A stretch of DNA of 64,000 nt from a bacterium. Lineage in GTDB: Bacteria > UBA8248 > JACPRG01 > G963555815. Below the pieces are notes generated by a model, which ran no database searches, was not told the DNA's origin, and worked only from the letters and a program-made list of their open reading frames with translations. Below, one piece after another: positions 532 through 7,934 of the stretch. Each line of letters starts with the position of its first letter. Within the stretch, counting starts at the first letter, position 1. The DNA is taken from the NCBI GenBank assembly GCA_965218795.1, contig OZ244653.1, forward strand, positions 3,968,001-4,032,000, written 5' to 3'. A program made the position numbers and the translations under genes.

Positions 532-904
532 GATTTCATGGATCGCTTTTTCCCACGCGTTGCGGCTGTTACATAACATATTGATATTATATGTAGATAT
601 CTGTTTCTCCATGCTTCCTGACTGACGGCTACCTGCAAAGTTCAACACTATTTCAACACGGAGATCGTGTCGTACCGAGTCGCGCTCCTGACGCCGTGTG
701 CCGCCGCCGATCCGCCGTTTCCGCCGATTCGAGACCATTCGCCGCGCGAATCGTAGCCGTTCGGCCTCCGGCCCGGATCGCCCCGAACCCGGAAGCCCGA
801 CCGCCGGCGGGGGCCGCAATGATGGCGTTGACCAATGCCATCGCGCTGCCGGTGCCCGTCCGTGGCCGCGAACCAATGCCGCGGGCGATCCCGTTACAGG
901 CGGT

Positions 905-1365
905 TCACCTCCATTCCGGAACAATACCGTTTTCCCGCAGGAACTCTTCCACCAGCTCCGCAACCTGCTCTTCCTAGGAGGCGTAGAAGGCATGGACCGC
1001 ACCCTCGTCGCGGACATCAGTTTTCCATCTCCCGATCGAGCCGGTATACGCCGCGTCAGCGCGGCGACGACGCGTTTCGTCGTCCGTCCAGCCCGACCTC
1101 AGGAATTGCTTGAGAATCTCGTGGTGTCCGCCGTGATCGAGGCCCGGGATCTCCAGATAGCGCTCCGGCTCCGCCGCGACGCGCTCGCGCCCCTCCGGTT
1201 CTCCCCGGCGGGTATCCCTACTTCCCAGTATGCGTCGTCGTCGCACTCGTAGAGCCAAAGCACATCGCCCGTGCGCCGGTCAAGGTAAGTCCGTTGGGGA
1301 ACCGAATCCTGGTAGTCGACGTCGCGCCCGAAAGCCATCATGAACACCGTTCGGTCGATGGTCAC
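905..1365 (-). pseudogene. UPF0158-like protein, disrupted
   Basis: YLDRRTGDVLW...ERYLEIP...EEFLRENGI pattern spread over two frames (shift near 1192) with an internal TAG at 974-976. Confidence 0.6.
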
Positions 1366-1382: not shown

Positions 1383-1650
1383 TCAGAACGCGTAGCGCAG
1401 GGAAAGCCGGACCCGTGGCTCGTAAGCTTCGCCCGCGTTGCGGCGAGATCGAGCAACAGCGGCTCACGGCTCCCGTCGCGCGAGACCACCCGGCCCTCGC
1501 CCCTGCCGGTGCGGACGGTGCCGAGGTCCGTGTATCGCCAGGCGAGATCGAGCATCGCGCGCTCGCCCAGCGCCGTCGCGACCCCCGCCGTCAGCATCCA
1601 GGCGAGGCCGGCCCGGCTCTCGCCCGGCACGACGGTCGTCGTCTTCGGAA
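1383..1650 (-). pseudogene. C-terminal fragment of an outer-membrane beta-barrel (opacity/Ail-like) protein
   Basis: AWMLTAGVA...LDLAWRYTDLG; after a 1-bp shift it ends RLSLRYAF-stop, a typical terminal Phe beta-signal. Confidence 0.6.
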
Positions 1651-1741
1651 AGGCATGAGGCTGGATGACGAGGGTGGACCGGACATTTCAGTATCGAACG
1701 CTCTCGAACCGCACGGTCGAGAAGGACACGGTGTTCTGGGA

Positions 1742-2080
1742 GTGCGCCAGGCGAACTGGTGCAGTGCAGCCGGTGAGAGTCCGGCAGGAGGGAGAAGGCC
1801 AGCCACCACCTCCACCCCGAGTCATGGGCCGCCATCCGCGAGGGTGGGAGTCAAGCGTTGACAGGGGCGCGGGCGGGCGGGGCGATTGAGCACCGAAAGT
1901 AACCTGTCCGGGATGCCGAGGCCTTTCCCAGAGCCGAAGGCAGCATCCGACCCACCGATAGGGCGAGGGGGGCCGGAGTTCCGCGGTGTCAAAGAACCCA
2001 GGCACGCACGTACGCACTGCACCGGGACCTGGGAGGTCTCCATGCTATCCCGCTGTCGTGGCGGGGTCGCAAAGGAAAGG
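1742..2080 (+). mobile_element. Outer group II intron, 5' part (domain I) only
   Basis: Starts GTGCG; GCCGGTGAGAGTCCGGC hairpin; domain I-like motifs GCCGAAGGCAGCATC and GGGACCTGGGAGGTCTC; candidate EBS1 TCCCAGA (1926-1932) is complementary to upstream exon TCTGGGA (1735-1741). Confidence 0.8.
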
Positions 2081-2911
2081 GTGCAGCGAGACTAGCTGCT
2101 GTGCTTGCGGGTGAGAGTCCCGCCGGCGCAATTCTCAGTTTGGCGCCGTAGTTATATCCGGCAGGCACTTGGGGCGACCCGAATGACCTGAAAGCCCGGA
2201 AGTAACAGCCTCGGGAGGCCGGGGAACCTTAGGGAACTCCAGGTCTGGTCAGCCCGGTGAGGCGAGCAAGCAGGAGGGCCGTAGCGAGAGCGAACGGACT
2301 AGACGCCGAAAATTGCGATCCGCATGAAGCTGATTCGAGCGGGGTTATCGGAGCTGCCAAGGGTTTCTCCTTTCTACTCGATGGCCAGTGCCGATACGGA
2401 AGAACTGAGGCGCACGTATCGGAGCTCCCGGCGTAAGCTGAAGGCGGCAATCCTGGAAAGTACAGCAGTGAAAGTCCGGAAGGTGTGGAGGTTGGACAGG
2501 ATGACCCTGTGAATGTCGAAGACCGTCTCTATAACCGGGCGACCTGGGAAATGAGACGGAGATCTCCACACTGGCGGATGAGGTCGCCAAGCGTTGAAGG
2601 GTGGGACAACACAACCCACCCGGAGCGAGGACCTCTAGGCACAGGTGGCGAAGCTGTGGCAGGCAACCCGCACACAGCGGCGGACGAATCGCTCTGCACA
2701 TGGTGACGCCTGAGGACGGAGTAAACGTTGGATTCGCTGAGGGGTATGGCGGGGTCGGTCTTAACCCCGGCAGTCTCGCGGAAGGCTCCGCTCCAAACTG
2801 GGAGGTGCCTGGTGCTTGAAGCCGTACCGAGGGGAAACCCGATGTACGGAATTTCAGGGGGGGCGGCTGGAAACGTGGCCTACGGGTGCGCGCACCAGTG
2901 CCCTACCCGAC
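2081..2911 (+). mobile_element. Inner ORF-less group II intron (831 nt)
   Basis: Starts GTGCAG with GCGGGTGAGAGTCCCGC hairpin; domain V GAAGCCGTACCGAGGGGAAACCCGATGTACGGAATTTC from 2818; domain VI ends CCCTACCCGAC at 2911; no RT ORF. Confidence 0.85.
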
Positions 2912-4114
2912 AGCAACGTCATCTCCACGACGGGCGCGAGCGGCCACGGCATCGCGGCCTACAACTACGGGACGCTGGCCGGCAGCGCCACCTCCATCAG
3001 AGTCGGGGGAAGCATCAACGGAGCGGGCTCGGGCGCGCAAGGAATCCGTGTGGGCGTCGTCAGCAACGCCGGCGTAGCACAGCGCGTCGCGCCAATCGGC
3101 GAGGACGGCTACCGCCGGCAGACGGTGACGGTCAACGGCTCGGTTACGGGCAACGCGGCGGGCGTTTTTCTGGCGGGTGGCGGTAGGGTCGTCATCGGAC
3201 CTAGGGGAAGCATCGGCGCAGCGTCGGGGATCGCCATTCTCGCTTCTGGCGACACGCCGGGGGCCAACGCAGGAGACCCGGCGATCAAGCCCAAACTCCG
3301 CGTCGACATGAACCTCGACGGCCGCCGGGTGAGGAATGTCATCGGTGACGACTGGATCATCAATGACGGAGGCGAGACCACCATCGCGGTCAACAGGATG
3401 GTGCTGCATGACGGCGAGATGGGCGTCACCGACGCGGTAGACCGCAACGGGGCGTACAACGTCTCGATCAGAGAGGACGGGCTCACAGTGACGGATCGCA
3501 CGACGGACCCGTGGACCTTTTCCGCGGGTTCGACGAGTACGGTCTCCGACCGGGACTTCTCGGCGGCGCACTTCACCGAGACTGCCGCTCCAACCTGTTC
3601 GGAAGGACAGGTTGGCACGCCGCGCAACTGCTCTAATCCGCCGTCCGTGGAGCCGGAAACGCCCATGATCATGGAGAAATACGCGCCACGCTCGGCGGTC
3701 TACGAGGCGCTGCCGGGCTTTATGCTCGGGCTCGACGCGCCGGGACTCGATGAGGAGCGCGTGACGTCGCCCGGTTCGCCCGTATGGGCGCGCATATCGG
3801 GCGGGCGCGGTTCGTACGAACCCGTTCGCGCGAGCGTGGGCGCGGAATACGACGCGAGCCGCTTCGCGGCGGAGGCGGGGCTGGACTTCTCGTTCGGCGA
3901 GAACGTCGTCGGCTCGGCCTCCGTTCGCAGCGTGCGGGGCTCGGCGGACGTGAAATCCTCCGTCGGAGGGGGGAAGATCGATGTATACGGCCTCGGCTTC
4001 TCGCTCGGATTTTCCGTGGACGGGTATGGCTTCTACGCGAAGGGGGACGTCTCGCTCACGCGCTACGACGTGAATCTTTTCTCCTCCGCACTTGGCCTTC
4101 TCCGCAAGGACTGA
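2912..4114 (+). pseudogene. Autotransporter fragment (Gly-rich passenger plus start of the beta-domain)
   Basis: TTGASGHGIAAY-type passenger repeats, YAPRSAVYEALP linker, WARISGGRG beta-domain start; bounded by the intron and cut by IS3 at 4112. Confidence 0.8.
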
Positions 4115-4173
4115 GGTGGTCCCACTTTTTTGGACAGGATGGCGGCTGCGTTAAGGTGTAATCCATTCGTTGA

Positions 4174-5145
4174 TCATGCCGCCAGAGTCCTGTTTGACCC
4201 GTCTTCCTGTTTCGGTTGAGCCGGCAGAGGGGCAGGCAAGCGTTGGGGCTTGGCCTGCATCTGCGGCGGCATCCCTCTTTCGTAGGCCTCGGCCGGGGTG
4301 GAGTCCGCCAGGGCGGAGTGAGGCCTTTGGGTATCATAAAAGGCCATCCATCGGGAGATAACCCGTTGGGCTTGGAAGCCGTCGGTGAGCTCGTGCAGGT
4401 AGACGGCCTCGTACTTGAGCGAACGCCAGAGGCGCTCGATGAAGATGTTGTCCATGCACCGGCCCCTGCCGTCCATGGAGATGGCGACGCCGGCGTCTTG
4501 GAGGACATCGGTAAACTCCAGGCTGGTGAACTGGCTGCCTTGGTCGGTATTGAAGATCCGAGGCCGGCCGTAGCGCTCCAGGGCTTCAGTCAGGGCTTCG
4601 ACGCAGAAGCGGGCATCCAGGGTGTTGGACAGCCGCCAGGCGAGCACTCGGCGGGTGGCCCAGTCCATGACGGCTACCAGGTACAAGAAGCCGCGCTGGA
4701 CGGGGATGTAGGTGATATCAGCGGTCCAGACCTGATTGGGCCGGTCGATGGCGAGTCCCTTGAGAAGATAGGGATAAACCCGGTGTTCGGGATGTGGTCT
4801 GGTGGTTCTCGGCGCTTGGTAGATGGCCTGTAGGCCCATCAGCCGCATCAGCCGGCGTACCCGGTGACGACCGACACGGACTCCATCCCGCCGCAGATGA
4901 CGGACCATCTGGCGGCTGCCGTAGAACGGGTACTTCAGAAACAATTCATCGATCCGCCGCATCAACGCCAGGTTCTGCGCACTCTCGCCCTGCGGCGTGT
5001 GATACAGCGAGGATCGGCTGATGGAGAGCAAGCGGCATTGACGGCTCAAGCTGAGCTTGGGATGGTCGCGACGGATCATGGCCCTGCGTCCCTCCCGGCT
5101 CACCACTTGAGCCCTTTTGGACAAAAAATCCCGCTCCACTGTCAA
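4174..5145 (-). CDS. IS3 transposase OrfB (DDE)
   Basis: WTADITYI, FNTDQGSQF, DNIFIERLWRSLKYE motifs. Confidence 0.95.
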   Translation of the reverse strand: MTVERDFLSKRAQVVSREGRRAMIRRDHPKLSLSRQCRLLSISRSSLYHTPQGESAQNLALMRRIDELFLKYPFYGSRQMVRHLRRDGVRVGRHRVRRLMRLMGLQAIYQAPRTTRPHPEHRVYPYLLKGLAIDRPNQVWTADITYIPVQRGFLYLVAVMDWATRRVLAWRLSNTLDARFCVEALTEALERYGRPRIFNTDQGSQFTSLEFTDVLQDAGVAISMDGRGRCMDNIFIERLWRSLKYEAVYLHELTDGFQAQRVISRWMAFYDTQRPHSALADSTPAEAYERGMPPQMQAKPQRLPAPLPAQPKQEDGSNRTLAA

Positions 5146-5377
5146 CTCCCCGATCTTCGCGTGCAGGTCCCGGATATCCGCCTCGTGGTCCCCTCGACTC
5201 CGCTCCCTTGGAGAATACCTCGCTCAGCCCCTCCACCGCCCGCTGCTTCCAGGCGCTCACTTGGTTCGGATGAACCTTGTGCCGCGTCGCGATCTCATGG
5301 ACCGTCTTGTCCCCGCGCAGTGCTTCCAGCGCTACCTTCGCCTTGAACTCTCCCGTGAACCGCCGTCGTGTGGTCAT
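5100..5377 (-). pseudogene. IS3 OrfA with an extra frameshift near 5190
   Basis: RRRFTGEFKAKVALEAL HTH; the leucine zipper DHEADIRDLHAKIGELTVERDFL is in another frame. Confidence 0.8.
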
Positions 5378-5444
5378 TGCGTATCCCTCCCTCAGTCGGT
5401 GGAATACACCTTAGCAAACTGTCTTATTTGCTGGGACCACCTCA

Positions 5445-5630
5445 ATCATCAAGACTTGGGAGGAGCACCTCGCTTCTTATCGGGAGCGCGAGGTGGTGTC
5501 CTACCACCGTGTCTGGTCCTATTTCTTCGATTGGGTCGGCCTTCAATACGCGGGAGTGATTGAGGACAAGCCCGGCATTCCAGCCTCCCCGATTCACGTC
5601 ACCCGGCTGGTCAAAACCATGCGGGCCCGA
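5445..5630 (+). pseudogene. Internal fragment of a ZnuA/TroA-like metal ABC substrate-binding protein
   Basis: IKTWEEHLASYREREVVSYHRVWSYFFDWVG...IEDKPGIPASPIHV. Confidence 0.7.
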
Positions 5631-6055
5631 CCGGGTCTTGAGAGGCGGAACCACGGGCGCGTACCCCAGCGCCAAGGCCAGTTGGCGTGTCTCGCTGCCC
5701 TCGTATGCGCGATCCATGACCAGGGACGGGTTGCCGTGCCGCCGACCCAGGCCGTTCAGCAGCTTGCGCCTGTCCGGGCGACAGCGAGAACGTCAGGGCC
5801 GGTCGAGCACCCCGTTCCTGGACCAGCGGTTCATCCGGGTGTAGATGGTGTGCCAGTTGCCGACCCGGGTCGGCAGCCCCCGCCACTTGCAGCCATGCTC
5901 GGCGACGTACAGGATGGCGTTGAGCACTTGCAGGTTCGACAGGCTGACGTTGCCGCGTTGCACCGGCAGGGAGGGCGCAATGCGTTCGTACTGAGCTTGG
6001 GTGATCTCCATCCGCAAAGGATAACATAACCCCACCCATTAGTGCTAACAGGCCC
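5630..6055 (-). mobile_element. Internally deleted IS5-family element
   Basis: End GGGCCTGTTAGCACT; OrfA MEITQAQYERI...NAILYVAEHGCKWRGLP; OrfB piece MDRAYEG...PVVPP; other end missing. Confidence 0.85.
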
Positions 6056-6098
6056 TAGGCCCTGAACCTGGCGCGTCAACCAGTTCCGCCACTTCGGC
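6055..6098 (-). pseudogene. 5' half of tRNA-Leu(CAG), truncated by IS5
   Basis: GCCGAAGTGGCGGAACTGGTTGACGCGCCAGGTTCAGGGCCTAG gives acceptor 5' strand, D arm and CAG anticodon arm; variable arm, T arm and 3' end are absent. Confidence 0.85.
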
Positions 6099-6124
6099 AC
6101 CTGAATATCCCGGCGGGCATTTGG

Positions 6125-6153
6125 AATATAGCACCGGCGACCAAACCCGACAA
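6125..6153 (-). promoter_or_regulatory. sigma70-like promoter of the tRNA-Leu remnant
   Basis: TTGTCG-17 bp-TATATT with extended TG. Confidence 0.55.
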
Positions 6154-6386
6154 GACTGAGAAATCAGGAAAAAACGGGCGGGCGGCCATTGGCTGAAACT
6201 CCCCCGCGTTCCTCGGGACAGGCCCCGCCCGGCCCCTGCATTTCAGGATACACGCCGCCGGAGGAACAATATCCCCAACGCGGCGAAATCGCTGCGGCGC
6301 GTTTGAGTCGGTGGCTCTTGAGTCGATGACCCTGCCGCCGCCATGATATGCGACGCCAATAGGGTCCCCAGGTCAATGACCTGCCG

Positions 6387-6745
6387 CTAGCGGCGCTTGT
6401 CGAGGACGATATCGACCGACGTGTCGCCCACCTGAACGGGCTGTTTCGCCCGCCCTTCCAGATCCCCGGGCTGACTGCCCACCCGACCGTCCCCGTCCAG
6501 GCGGACCGTGACGTTCACGCTCCCCTGAAACGGCATCCCGCGGATCATCACGTTCGCCTCGCTCACCTCATACTTCAGCGGAAAGCCCGAATTTCTCAAC
6601 CGCCTGACGGCCAGCGGCGGACCCGCGTTGACCCCGGCGGGCCGAACAATCACGAAGATCACGCCCCCGCCCGGCGCCCGGCCGAGCGATGGGGAGACCG
6701 TGATCGTCCCCGAGATCGACTCCCCGGCGGAGGCCTGACCGGCGG
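6387..6745 (-). pseudogene. CcmI/CycH-like C-terminal domain fragment
   Basis: ISGTITVSPSL...VIFVIVR...GPPLAVRRL...FPLKY...PGDLEG; N-terminus missing. Confidence 0.65.
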
Positions 6746-6747
6746 CG

Positions 6748-6875
6748 CGGGCGTCGATCTGATCATAGAGGTCGATTTCGGCGGGAACCTCGGCACCTCG
6801 CTGGAAATTCTCAAGAACAACGGGTCCATCGCCACGTACGCCTCGATGGGGAACGTGATCCTTGAAATTCCGTGA
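6748..6875 (+). pseudogene. NADPH:quinone reductase (zeta-crystallin-like) internal fragment
   Basis: GVDLIIEVDFGGNLGTSLEILKNNGSIATYASMG. Confidence 0.55.
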
Positions 6876-6907
6876 ATTGGAGGTTTCGCTTGAACCCGTT
6901 GGTTTCG

Positions 6908-6936
6908 TTGACAGGCGGGGGTGGTCGGAATATGCT
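6908..6936 (+). promoter_or_regulatory. sigma70 promoter of tRNA-Arg
   Basis: TTGACA-17 bp-TATGCT. Confidence 0.75.
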
Positions 6937-6956
6937 TCCCATAAAATCCGAATGCA

Positions 6957-7033
6957 GCGCGATTAGCTCAGCTGGATAGAGCGTCGGCCTCCGGAGCCGA
7001 AGGTCGCAGGTTCGAGTCCTGCATCGCGCGCCA
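6957..7033 (+). tRNA. tRNA-Arg(CCG)
   Basis: Full cloverleaf: GCGCGAT/ATCGCGC acceptor, TCGGC-CTCCGGA-GCCGA anticodon arm, GTTCGAG T loop, encoded CCA. Confidence 0.97.
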
Positions 7034-7044
7034 TTCATGCCAAT

Positions 7045-7081
7045 CAACGACAGGGGCGGCCATCGGCCGCCCCTGTCGTTG
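7045..7081. terminator. Long GC-rich hairpin, probable bidirectional terminator
   Basis: CAACGACAGGGGCGGCC-ATC-GGCCGCCCCTGTCGTTG between convergent genes. Confidence 0.7.
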
Positions 7082-7136
7082 TTCTGAATTCATGAAAAAA
7101 CTTCAGCGGCTGAATCAATGGCCGCCGGCGCCTCCC

Positions 7137-7934
7137 TCAGGATTTTTCGATCTGAAGCATGACGTTCCGATCCGCCCAGCGGATATCTTCCGGGTCGGAG
7201 AAATTTCGATTGATGTTTTCCCTGAAAACCTCGATGGCCTCCTCCAGCTCGTCACGCCGATACAGTGAAAAAGTCGAATAGTGCCTGCTGCGCACTTGAG
7301 CCAACAGCCGGTCCAGGCTGAAGCACCGGGGATAATTGAACATCCGGGTTGCCGCGAGGTGGAGCGTGTCGGACTCATGGATTGCCTTCTGCATCTCCGA
7401 CAACTCGAAAAGGCGGGTTTCTTTCTCGGTGAACTTGGGAAAATATTTCCCCCAAACGGACTCGCCGTTTTGGCCGGGCGTCCGCGTATAGATGAAAATC
7501 CTCCCGGCCTCCCGTAGCGCGCGGCTGATGATCCGCAGAAAGGCGGGGAAATCAAAATGGTGCACCGCATTGAATGTAAAGACGGCATCGAGTGATTCTC
7601 TTTCCAGATCGAGCGTTTCAATCCGCCCGAGGAGGGTCCGGAATCTGGAGACGCCACTGCGGCCCAAGTTGATTTCCAGCTGATTGAGCATCTCCCGGTT
7701 GACGTCATTACAAGTCATTTCCATTTTCTGGAGGGCTTGAAAAAGGAGATGCGTATAACGGCCGGTTCCGCAGCCGACCTCCAGGGCCTGCACGTCGTCA
7801 CGATCAGCGAGGGCCCGCCGGATGAATTCAACCGGCTCATTGTCCGTCGTCCGGACGTCGCGGTACACCTTGGCGATGCGCGCAAAGTGTGGGTACATCT
7901 CTTGTTGATTCTTGATGACCGTATCGATACTCAT
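7137..7934 (-). CDS. Class I SAM-dependent methyltransferase
   Basis: Motif I LEVGCGTG, DAVFTFNAVHHF, ALREAGRIFI. Confidence 0.9.
   Translation of the reverse strand: MSIDTVIKNQQEMYPHFARIAKVYRDVRTTDNEPVEFIRRALADRDDVQALEVGCGTGRYTHLLFQALQKMEMTCNDVNREMLNQLEINLGRSGVSRFRTLLGRIETLDLERESLDAVFTFNAVHHFDFPAFLRIISRALREAGRIFIYTRTPGQNGESVWGKYFPKFTEKETRLFELSEMQKAIHESDTLHLAATRMFNYPRCFSLDRLLAQVRSRHYSTFSLYRRDELEEAIEVFRENINRNFSDPEDIRWADRNVMLQIEKS

What the first reader, a model, noticed from the sequence alone, without database searches (positions are those of the whole stretch)
1742..2911. Group II twintron: an ORF-less intron inserted into another intron's domain I
Seen: two intron 5' ends (GTGCG at 1742, GTGCAG at 2081) but only one domain V/VI (2818-2911) and no RT ORF. 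Each 5' end has its own candidate EBS1 matching the bases just upstream: TCCCAGA (1926-1932) pairs with TCTGGGA, and CCTTTC (2369-2374) pairs with GAAAGG (2075-2080). Established: EBS1-IBS1 pairing defines group II target sites. Inference: the 831-nt inner intron, with a non-canonical GUGCAG start, targets a conserved motif of other group II introns and is mobilised in trans.
Basis: partly seen in the sequence, partly recalled or inferred. Interest (0 to 1): 0.8.

Follow-up and report, generated by a model that had tools for sequence, protein, structure and literature searches.

The report
Remnant of nested group II introns
A complete protein-less self-splicing intron sits inside the leftover front part of a second intron; it belongs to a widespread family that often lands in other introns, but this copy is a stranded relic.

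Summary
The sequence features are real. 1742-2080 is the 5' part (domains I-III) of an RT-type group II intron ("O"; RF02005, 156.9 bits). It sits in the N-terminal coding region of a tyrosine-integrase gene, with 7/7 EBS1-IBS1 pairing. 2081-2911 is a complete 831-nt ORF-less group II intron ("I"; RF02003, 53 bits). A six-domain fold is supported by covariation in 18 copies. It is not in O's domain I: it lies 10 nt past O's domain III, in the linker before the RT ORF. Other copies do sit in domain I of O-type introns. I belongs to a family found as 48 stretches in MAGs labelled as several phyla. All copies examined lack an ORF, and nearly all start GUGCAG. EBS1 and EBS2 covary with the 5' flank (19 of 26 distinct sites pair 6/6). 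14 of 33 distinct sites lie in or behind another group II intron. In this window O's domains IV-VI and the rest of the integrase gene are missing. I's last base abuts an unrelated autotransporter fragment, and the genome has no group II RT. This copy is therefore an immobile relic. The arrangement resembles the Thermosynechococcus TeI3-in-TeI4 twintrons; the family itself may be undescribed.

The parts
1652..1741 (+). 5' exon of the outer intron: start of a tyrosine-integrase gene (ATG 1665, reads ...TLSNRTVEKDTVFW). IBS1 for the outer intron is 1735-1741 (TCTGGGA).
   Evidence: Six paralogous uninterrupted sites in the same genome read ACGGTGTTCTGGGA|YCACGAGCTCAC. One paralog has Phage_integrase and Arm-DNA-bind_3 domains.
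1742..2080 (+). Outer intron O, 5' part only. 5' GUGCG; DI with closing helix 1758-1767/2014-2023; EBS1 loop 1926-1932; DII 2024-2040; DIII 2044-2070; linker 2071-2080. DIV (RT ORF), DV and DVI are absent.
   Evidence: RF02005 156.9 bits. Consensus fold of 5 copies. Same composite at 90% identity in L019 with a different flank and a compensating EBS1.
2065..2080 (+). Target site of the inner intron inside O: IBS2 2065-2072 (GGTCGCAA) and IBS1 2075-2080 (GAAAGG).
   Evidence: Pairs with EBS2 2313-2320 (8 bp) and EBS1 2369-2374 (6 bp). Both covary across copies.
2081..2911 (+). Inner ORF-less intron I, 831 nt. 5' GUGCAG; DI 2087-2478; EBS2 2313-2320; EBS1 2369-2374; DII 2479-2575; DIII 2580-2635; DIV 2638-2816 (no ORF); DV 2817-2856 (AGC 2820-2822); DVI 2857-2908 with bulged A 2905; 3' end ...CCCGAC.
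   Evidence: RF02003 53 bits. 18-copy alignment and fold: 217 pairs, 71 with compensatory change, 97.5% of cells paired against 34-44% when the partner is slid. Coordinates.
2912..4114 (+). Unrelated 3' flank: internal fragment of an autotransporter gene (passenger repeats plus the first ~100 aa of the beta domain). It lacks its first ~310 codons and is cut at about 4114-4174 by an IS3-family element.
   Evidence: Pfam Autotransporter for P0002; transposase with rve/HTH_21 at 4174-5145 minus. tblastn aligns paralog aa 313-746 to 2915-4111.

Best explanation
The stretch is the relic of a nested pair of group II introns.

Shown: an RT-type intron (O) is inserted in the Arm-DNA-binding coding part of a P4-like integrase gene. 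Its EBS1 (UCCCAGA) matches the 5' exon (UCUGGGA) exactly. A second, ORF-less intron (I) is inserted in O's DIII-DIV linker, about 20 nt before the point where O's RT ORF starts in complete relatives. I has all six domains. Its DI carries EBS1 and EBS2 loops that pair with the 16 nt of O just upstream of it.

Inferred from established group II biology: I inserted by reverse splicing into DNA, guided by these pairings, and was copied by a reverse transcriptase supplied in trans. The same family has re-aimed EBS1 and EBS2 at many other sites.

Shown: O's DIV-DVI and the rest of the integrase gene are gone, and I's 3' end is joined within 0-3 nt to an unrelated autotransporter fragment. The genome encodes no group II RT.

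Inferred: the junction arose by recombination between this I and a second I copy once resident in the autotransporter gene, or by another event tied to I's 3' end. In this genome both introns are immobile fossils. I might still excise itself from a transcript, but that would restore no gene.

The confidence given applies to the anatomy (two introns, their boundaries, the insertion site, the truncation). The recombination step alone I put at about 0.4.
For: Rfam matches. Only one copy in the genome.

Other copies of I start exactly at 2081 and end at 2911. They occur in 3 other genomes of 51 in the class and in 48 stretches of genome contigs.

The six-domain fold has 71 of 217 pairs with compensatory change, against 8-15 in slid controls, and 0 of 500 shuffles reach it.

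EBS1-IBS1: 19 of 26 distinct sites pair 6/6 and 24 of 26 pair at least 5/6, with 13 different EBS1 6-mers and 0 of 2000 permutations as high. An unbiased column scan finds only the EBS1 loop for flank -1 to -7.

EBS2-IBS2: runs of at least 5 bp in 15 of 18 copies, against 98 of 294 cross-pairings.

Position in O: fold of 5 O copies and the empty site in L021. The same site is occupied in L034, L036 and L074.

Flanks: integrase paralog sites and autotransporter alignment.

RT: 0 matches in G000. There are 3, 21, 14 and 61 matches in four genomes that hold I, and 9, 2 and 0 in G013, G027 and G021.
Against: No splicing or mobility was tested.

RF00029 does not recognise I's DV/DVI in the window or in the five other loci with I-type 3' ends that I scanned at E<=0.1.

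The DV lower helix carries a 2-nt AA bulge beside the AGC triad in 13 of 18 copies. I know of no precedent for this, so catalytic competence is not assured.

The window copy has an A.C mismatch in the upper DV helix, lacks the inner DVI hairpin and has 6 private changes at columns invariant in the other 17 copies.

I found no intact twintron (complete O with I at this site). The O copies in L026 and L034 are also truncated or interrupted.

The second I copy needed for the recombination step is not in the genome. That step rests only on the precision of the junction.

The trans RT is unidentified. Of 5 genomes holding I, 2 have only RTs 39-40% identical to the O-type RT.
Confidence: 0.85

Rival explanations
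1. One reading: the inner intron sits in domain I of the outer intron.
For: True for other copies. In L056/L020, L032 and L043 the inner intron follows GGUGNAAGUCC...GGRARGG at about position 52 of an O-type domain I. In L022/L023 its 3' end is followed by the sequence homologous to window 1793-1898.
Against: In the window the outer intron's DI closing helix (1758-1767/2014-2023), DII and DIII all lie upstream of 2081. The uninterrupted site in L021 is followed at once by the RT ORF region.
Confidence: 0.03
2. The composite 1742-2911 is one functional hybrid intron. It would use O's 5' splice site and EBS1 with I's DV/DVI and 3' splice site, and would move as a unit.
For: O's 5' junction and I's 3' junction are both exact intron ends. 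Two other O-5'/I-3' chimeras exist: L020 (52 nt of O, then I, then non-O flank) and L021 (O DI-DIII plus the ORF start, fused to I from mid-DIII to the end).
Against: The two flanks come from unrelated genes: an integrase N-terminus and the middle of an autotransporter. No single insertion event explains them. I carries its own complete DI with its own 5' splice site 339 nt downstream. The composite in L019 is followed by O's DIV, so there it is an ordinary nested arrangement.
Confidence: 0.05
3. The junction at 2911|2912 is an assembly artefact. Two real I copies, one in O and one in an autotransporter gene, or copies from different organisms of one community, were collapsed into one.
For: I is a repeat shared at 83-98% identity among different genomes. 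Relatives are abundant in the metagenome contigs I laid. The genome has an estimated 6.36% contamination.
Against: The genome is a single 5.17-Mb contig. An 831-nt repeat is short for long reads to collapse. The region is in any case a mosaic of broken mobile-element and gene fragments: an IS3 in the autotransporter and a truncated integrase. No read set of the source was available. The best run held 24% of the sampled words.
Confidence: 0.1
4. The loss of O's 3' part was an ordinary illegitimate deletion. Its left end fell next to I's 3' end by chance.
For: The two bases after 2911 (AG) are the same as the first two bases of O's DIV (AGGAAUCC). The break could therefore lie 2 nt inside O.
Against: By my own rough estimate, an endpoint within about 3 nt of I's end among roughly 2 kb of possible positions is unlikely, well under 1 in 100. 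O's native 3' end (L041) is unlike I's, so homology between the two 3' ends cannot have guided it.
Confidence: 0.15

Closest known systems
Thermosynechococcus elongatus twintrons: ORF-less TeI3 introns inside RT-encoding TeI4 introns (PMC2882425; passages read)
   Same: An ORF-less intron is inserted at a conserved site at the very start of the RT ORF in DIV of an RT-encoding intron. [quoted passage not shown] In that system mobilisation in trans by the outer intron's protein was shown experimentally. Families have diverged to different target sites.
   Different: There the inner and outer introns are close relatives within one genome. Here the two match different Rfam 5'-domain families, the inner family occurs in MAGs labelled as several phyla, the site is in the DIII-DIV linker before the ORF, and this genome has no RT. 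Nothing was tested experimentally here.
Methanosarcina acetivorans nested introns (as summarised in the review PMC4424553; passages read; the original paper was not read)
   Same: Repeated site-specific homing of group II introns, some ORF-less, into other group II introns. Nests are several introns deep. Copies are lost by homologous recombination. I saw comparable nests in L030 and L041.
   Different: Those are archaeal, and the title cited says they home into related intron ORFs. Here the hosts are bacteria and the targets are DI, the DIII-DIV linker and DVI.
[quoted passage not shown]
   Same: Head-to-tail copies with the junction ...CCGAC|GUGC.... The paper explains them by an EBS3(U)-IBS3(G) wobble that lets a second copy enter the occupied site. 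Natural I-I arrays with an 878-nt period and the junction CCCGAC|GTGCAG occur in a Rhodobacterales MAG.
   Different: That intron encodes its own RT and homes only into groEL. EBS3 of the I family was not located here.
Rfam group-II-D1D4-4 (RF02003), D1D4-6 (RF02005) and Intron_gpII (RF00029)
   Same: Both 5' parts score above the curated thresholds.
   Different: The DV/DVI of the inner intron is not matched by RF00029. It has 0-2 extra bulged bases beside the AGC triad and a long DVI.

Membership tests
Group II intron ribozyme (inner intron, 2081-2911) | Six helical domains around a central wheel, supported by covariation | tested here: met
   217 pairs in 36 helices. 71 pairs have changes on both sides, against 8-15 in slid controls. 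97.5% of cells are paired.
Group II intron ribozyme (inner intron, 2081-2911) | Domain V: a ~34-nt hairpin with an AGC (or CGC) triad near its base and a 2-nt bulge on the 3' strand | tested here: inconclusive
   The AGC triad (2820-2822), the G.U pair and the 2-nt bulge (AC, or AU in the window) are present, and the upper helix covaries. However, 13 of 18 copies have an extra AA bulge, 3 have a single A and 2 have none, between the C-G and G.U pairs. RF00029 gives no match.
Group II intron ribozyme (inner intron, 2081-2911) | Domain VI with a bulged adenosine 7-8 nt from the 3' end | tested here: met
   A2905 is unpaired between pairs 854:962 and 853:964 of the alignment, 7 nt from the end. 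It is conserved in 18 of 18 copies.
Group II intron ribozyme (inner intron, 2081-2911) | 5' consensus GUGYG. This is typical rather than absolute: quotes an active intron with a 5' U. | tested here: not met
   GUGCA(G) in 17 of 18 aligned copies and GCGCAG in 1. Position 5 is A, not G.
Group II intron ribozyme (inner intron, 2081-2911) | Exon recognition by EBS1-IBS1 and EBS2-IBS2 (the IIA/IIB way) | tested here: met
   EBS3 or delta was not located.
Group II intron ribozyme (inner intron, 2081-2911) | Self-splicing or protein-assisted splicing through a lariat | not testable with these tools
   No run holds this locus. Contigs from RNA libraries that run from 2080 into O's DIV cannot distinguish an empty site from a spliced RNA.
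Twintron | One complete intron inside another complete intron | tested here: not met
   The outer intron lacks DIV-DVI in the window. The window therefore holds a twintron remnant. The O copies at this site in L026 and L034 are also truncated or interrupted.
Mobile group II retroelement | Intron-encoded reverse transcriptase/maturase in DIV | tested here: not met
   No ORF with an RT match in 1742-2911. No TIGR04416 match in the genome. The two long ORFs found in family loci and scanned with Pfam (L064, L031) are transposase-like, not RT.
Outer intron O as an RT-type group II intron (RF02005 type) | 5' GUGYG, DI with an EBS1 loop matching the 5' exon, and an RT ORF in complete relatives | tested here: met
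   GUGCG at 1742. RF02005 156.9 bits. EBS1/IBS1 pair 7/7, with a compensating change in L026. A complete relative in L041 has a 505-aa ORF with RVT_1 and GIIM and no HNH match.

The most novel reading that the evidence does not exclude
The inner intron represents an undescribed, widespread family of non-autonomous (SINE-like) group II introns. Its members have no ORF, start GUGCAG and carry a domain V with an extra bulge that the standard DV/DVI model misses. The family has spread through MAGs labelled Alphaproteobacteria, Gammaproteobacteria, Deltaproteobacteria, Binatia and Bryobacterales and through this genome's class. It does so by re-aiming EBS1 and EBS2, often at other group II introns whose RT it would borrow, and it builds tandem arrays. 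If so, ORF-less introns in bacteria are less rare than surveys based on the RT ORF or on RF00029 suggest. [quoted passage not shown]
Probability: 0.45. Interest if true: 0.7.

Novelty: new member of a known kind. Interest (0 to 1): 0.5.

Why it matters
Bacterial twintrons, and ORF-less introns moved in trans, are the best living models for how introns could multiply once a shared splicing and mobility machinery existed. The passages read make this argument.

This window adds a decayed example. More usefully, it points to a family that shows three things:
- It has many independently re-aimed target sites: 13 EBS1 variants among 26 distinct sites.
- It parasitises other introns in 14 of 33 distinct sites.
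- It escapes the usual DV model.

The window copy itself has no consequence for the cell. Both genes beside it are already broken.

Tried and rejected
1. I first read the 5' flank in the frame giving ...GHGVLG and took it for autotransporter passenger sequence continuous with 2912 onward. The blastx support was weak (E 0.4). One search showed that the flank is the start of an integrase gene in another frame, so I dropped this reading.

2. I called 1383-1647 (minus strand) an outer-membrane barrel C-terminus from its ending ...LRYAF*. Its only support is one 76% DNA match elsewhere in the genome. It remains unproven and is not used.

3. I considered deletion of O's 3' part by homology between I's and O's 3' ends. 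I rejected it because the complete O relative in L041 has a different DV/DVI and the 3' flank is not the integrase gene.

4. I looked for signs that the window's I is a hybrid of two lineages. It is closest to L034 in all 8 segments compared, so there is no such sign.

5. I looked for RT-encoding relatives of I among the pattern loci. The two long ORFs I scanned with Pfam are transposase-like.

6. DNA searches for I gave nothing in the family's 6 other genomes and nothing in 72,556 plasmid records. For the whole 1170-nt query, 82 plasmid records matched. The 30 listed all lie in query positions 1-298, the O part. The other 52 were not shown.

7. Sequencing runs: none held more than 24% of the sampled words. 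Laying four of them gave only contigs of relatives. Parts without cover (2662-2753) mean nothing.

Supplementary files of papers were not opened. Intron lists in the supplements of PMC8919778 or PMC2882425, and the Zimmerly database, may already hold this family.

9. Whether the family is in print: four text searches and passages from four papers showed no description of it. These searches do not cover subscription journals.

10. The alignment used 18 of the 31 distinct full-length copies I had (30 plus the window), picked for diversity. In the column scan I left out L030, a tandem second copy whose flank is another intron. In one search, 16 of the 60 pattern occurrences were unusable (cut by the locus end, divergent 5' end, or no GATGGC anchor).

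Full report
What is there. The window has two independent matches to Rfam models of the 5' part of group II introns. RF02005 matches 1776-1998 (156.9 bits) and RF02003 matches 2105-2289 (53.0 bits, threshold 49). In a second intron of the same genome both models hit the same stretch. They therefore describe the same region of domain I, and the window holds two intron 5' parts in a row. No match to the DV/DVI model RF00029 appears even at E<=10. The 1170-nt stretch is unique in its 5.17-Mb genome.

The inner intron (I, 2081-2911). Other copies begin exactly at the base homologous to 2081 and end at the base homologous to 2911. They occur in 3 further genomes of the 51 sampled in the class and in 48 stretches of public genome contigs found with a 29-base pattern. 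The records are labelled Paracoccaceae, Rhodobacterales, Rhodospirillaceae, Alpha-, Gamma- and Deltaproteobacteria, Binatia and Bryobacterales.

I aligned 18 of the 31 distinct full-length copies. The consensus fold has 217 pairs, 71 of them with compensatory changes. 97.5% of cells are paired, against 34-44% when the partner is slid by 1-3 columns. No shuffle of 500 reaches the observed values.

In window coordinates the domains are:
- DI 2087-2478
- DII 2479-2575
- DIII 2580-2635
- DIV 2638-2816, with no ORF
- DV 2817-2856
- DVI 2857-2908, with a bulged A at 2905, 7 nt from the end

The motif GTGAAAGTCC at about 2470, which at first looked like a third intron start, is the 3' strand of DI's basal helix.

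DV keeps the AGC triad, the G.U pair and the 2-nt bulge. It also carries extra unpaired bases between the C-G and G.U pairs: AA in 13 copies, A in 3 and none in 2. This, together with a long DVI, probably explains why RF00029 misses it in the window and in five other loci scanned. The 5' end is GUGCAG in 17 of 18 copies.

Target recognition. Of 60 pattern occurrences, 44 were usable and gave 26 distinct combinations of flank and EBS1. The six bases before the intron pair 6/6 with EBS1 in 19 of them and at least 5/6 in 24. There are 13 different EBS1 sequences. The mean is 5.5, against 3.59 (sd 0.22) when EBS1 is permuted, and 0 of 2000 permutations are as high. The two poor cases are L030, a tandem second copy, and L061.

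A blind scan of all DI columns against the flank picks out only this loop for positions -1 to -7. A second loop (window 2313-2320, UUGCGAUC) pairs with 2065-2072 (GGUCGCAA). Runs of at least 5 bp occur in 15 of 18 copies, against 98 of 294 cross-pairings. The intron therefore reads its 5' exon through EBS1 and EBS2, as IIA/IIB introns do. I did not locate EBS3.

Where it sits. A fold of five copies of the outer intron puts DI's closing helix at 1758-1767/2014-2023, DII at 2024-2040 and DIII at 2044-2070. Only 6 of its 102 pairs covary, because these copies are similar. I follows 2080, in the linker after DIII and not in domain I. An uninterrupted copy (L021) reads GGGAAGG|AGGAATCCG there and continues into the start of an RT ORF. 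The same site is occupied in L034, L036 and L074.

Elsewhere the family sits in several kinds of place:
- domain I of O-type introns
- near the 5' end of a related intron type
- DVI of another I or of a canonical intron
- head-to-tail arrays

In all, 14 of 33 distinct flanks are in or directly behind another group II intron. The other 19 are other or unknown sequence.

The outer intron (O, 1742-2080). It starts GUGCG. Its EBS1 loop (1926-1932) pairs 7/7 with 1735-1741. In L026 both the loop (CCCCUC) and the flank (GAGGGG) differ in step.

The 5' exon is the start of a tyrosine-integrase gene. Six paralogs in the same genome have the uninterrupted site ACGGTGTTCTGGGA|YCACGAGCTCAC. One of them has Phage_integrase and Arm-DNA-bind_3 domains.

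A complete O-type relative (L041) has a 505-aa ORF with RVT_1 and GIIM domains. Its DV/DVI resembles that of the genome's other intron and not that of I.

What is missing. After 2911 comes the middle of an autotransporter gene: paralog residues 313-746 align to 2915-4111. That gene is itself cut by an IS3-family element. The rest of the interrupted integrase gene is nowhere in the genome. So O's DIV-DVI and its 3' exon are lost, and I's exact 3' end (give or take the shared bases AG) is joined to foreign DNA.

The precision of that junction suggests an event tied to I. I favour recombination with a second I copy that had entered the autotransporter gene. There is no direct evidence for this. 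A chance deletion or an assembly collapse cannot be excluded.

The window's I is closest to a Binatia MAG copy (90-98% in all eight segments). It has lost the inner DVI hairpin between two CCTAYGG repeats and has six private changes at otherwise invariant columns.

Mobility. The genome has no match to the group II RT model. Four other genomes holding I have 3 to 61 matches. G013, G027 and G021 have 9, 2 and 0. RTs at least 60% identical to the O-type RT occur in 3 of 5 genomes tested. The other 2 have only 39-40% relatives. The helper RT is therefore unidentified. In this genome both introns are stranded.

Expression. No public run holds this locus. Contigs from sponge and coral RNA and DNA libraries carry relatives of both introns, and some run from O's DIII straight into DIV. 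That could be an empty site or a spliced RNA.

Comparison with the literature. The arrangement is closest to the Thermosynechococcus twintrons. There, ORF-less TeI3 introns sit at the start of the RT ORF of TeI4 introns and are moved in trans by the TeI4 protein (passages). Nested homing into other introns is known from Methanosarcina (review passages). Tandem insertion through an EBS3(U)-IBS3(G) wobble has been shown for a groEL intron (passages). The review notes that ORF-less introns seem rare in bacteria unless their DV is unusual. Pipelines that rely on RF00029 (passages) might miss this family. Four text searches found no description of it. Supplements and the intron database were not seen.

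Verdict. The window copy is an ordinary decayed mobile-element relic. The family it belongs to deserves a proper survey.

Noticed in passing
own genome C1:2638955-2639805 minus strand (L094/L005), outside the window: A second ORF-less intron of about 850 nt: RF02005 114.8 bits, RF00029 35.2 bits (below threshold). It starts UUGCG, and its DV reads AAC where AGC is usual. It contains an unoccupied site GGAGAGG|AGGATGAG like the one occupied by I in L049/L052. A 3' fragment of it with the same downstream flank lies at C1:1997737-1997811.
   Followed up: partly
window 540-1019: A repeat with copies of 94-96% identity at three other places in the genome. Each lies directly behind position 785 of an integrase paralog, as in the window (integrase fragment 228-533). 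It looks like a site-specific element in the integrase genes.
   Followed up: no
L032, L043, L051, L052, L055, L071, L076 (one Rhodobacterales MAG record): Head-to-tail arrays of two or three I copies with a period of 878 nt and the junction CCCGAC|GTGCAG.
   Followed up: partly
L021:873-1730: A chimera: an O-type DI-DIII plus about 58 codons of the RT ORF, fused to an I-type sequence from mid-DIII to the 3' end. L020 has 52 nt of O, a full I, then non-O flank.
   Followed up: partly
L041 (reverse strand 4657-7560) and L030:506-4600: Deep nests. In L041 a full O-type intron is followed by an O-type DI fragment holding one I, then another I 10 nt later. In L030 there is a tandem I pair in O's linker, and a different RT-encoding intron sits inside O's ORF.
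   Followed up: no
window 4174-5145 minus, 6957-7030 plus, 1-531 plus: An IS3-family transposase cutting the autotransporter beta domain, a tRNA gene, and an integrase fragment. The region looks like a decayed genomic island.
   Followed up: no
window 1383-1647 minus: A short frame ending ...LRYAF*, like the end of an outer-membrane barrel, with a stop upstream. One 76% DNA match elsewhere in the genome. Identity unproven.
   Followed up: no
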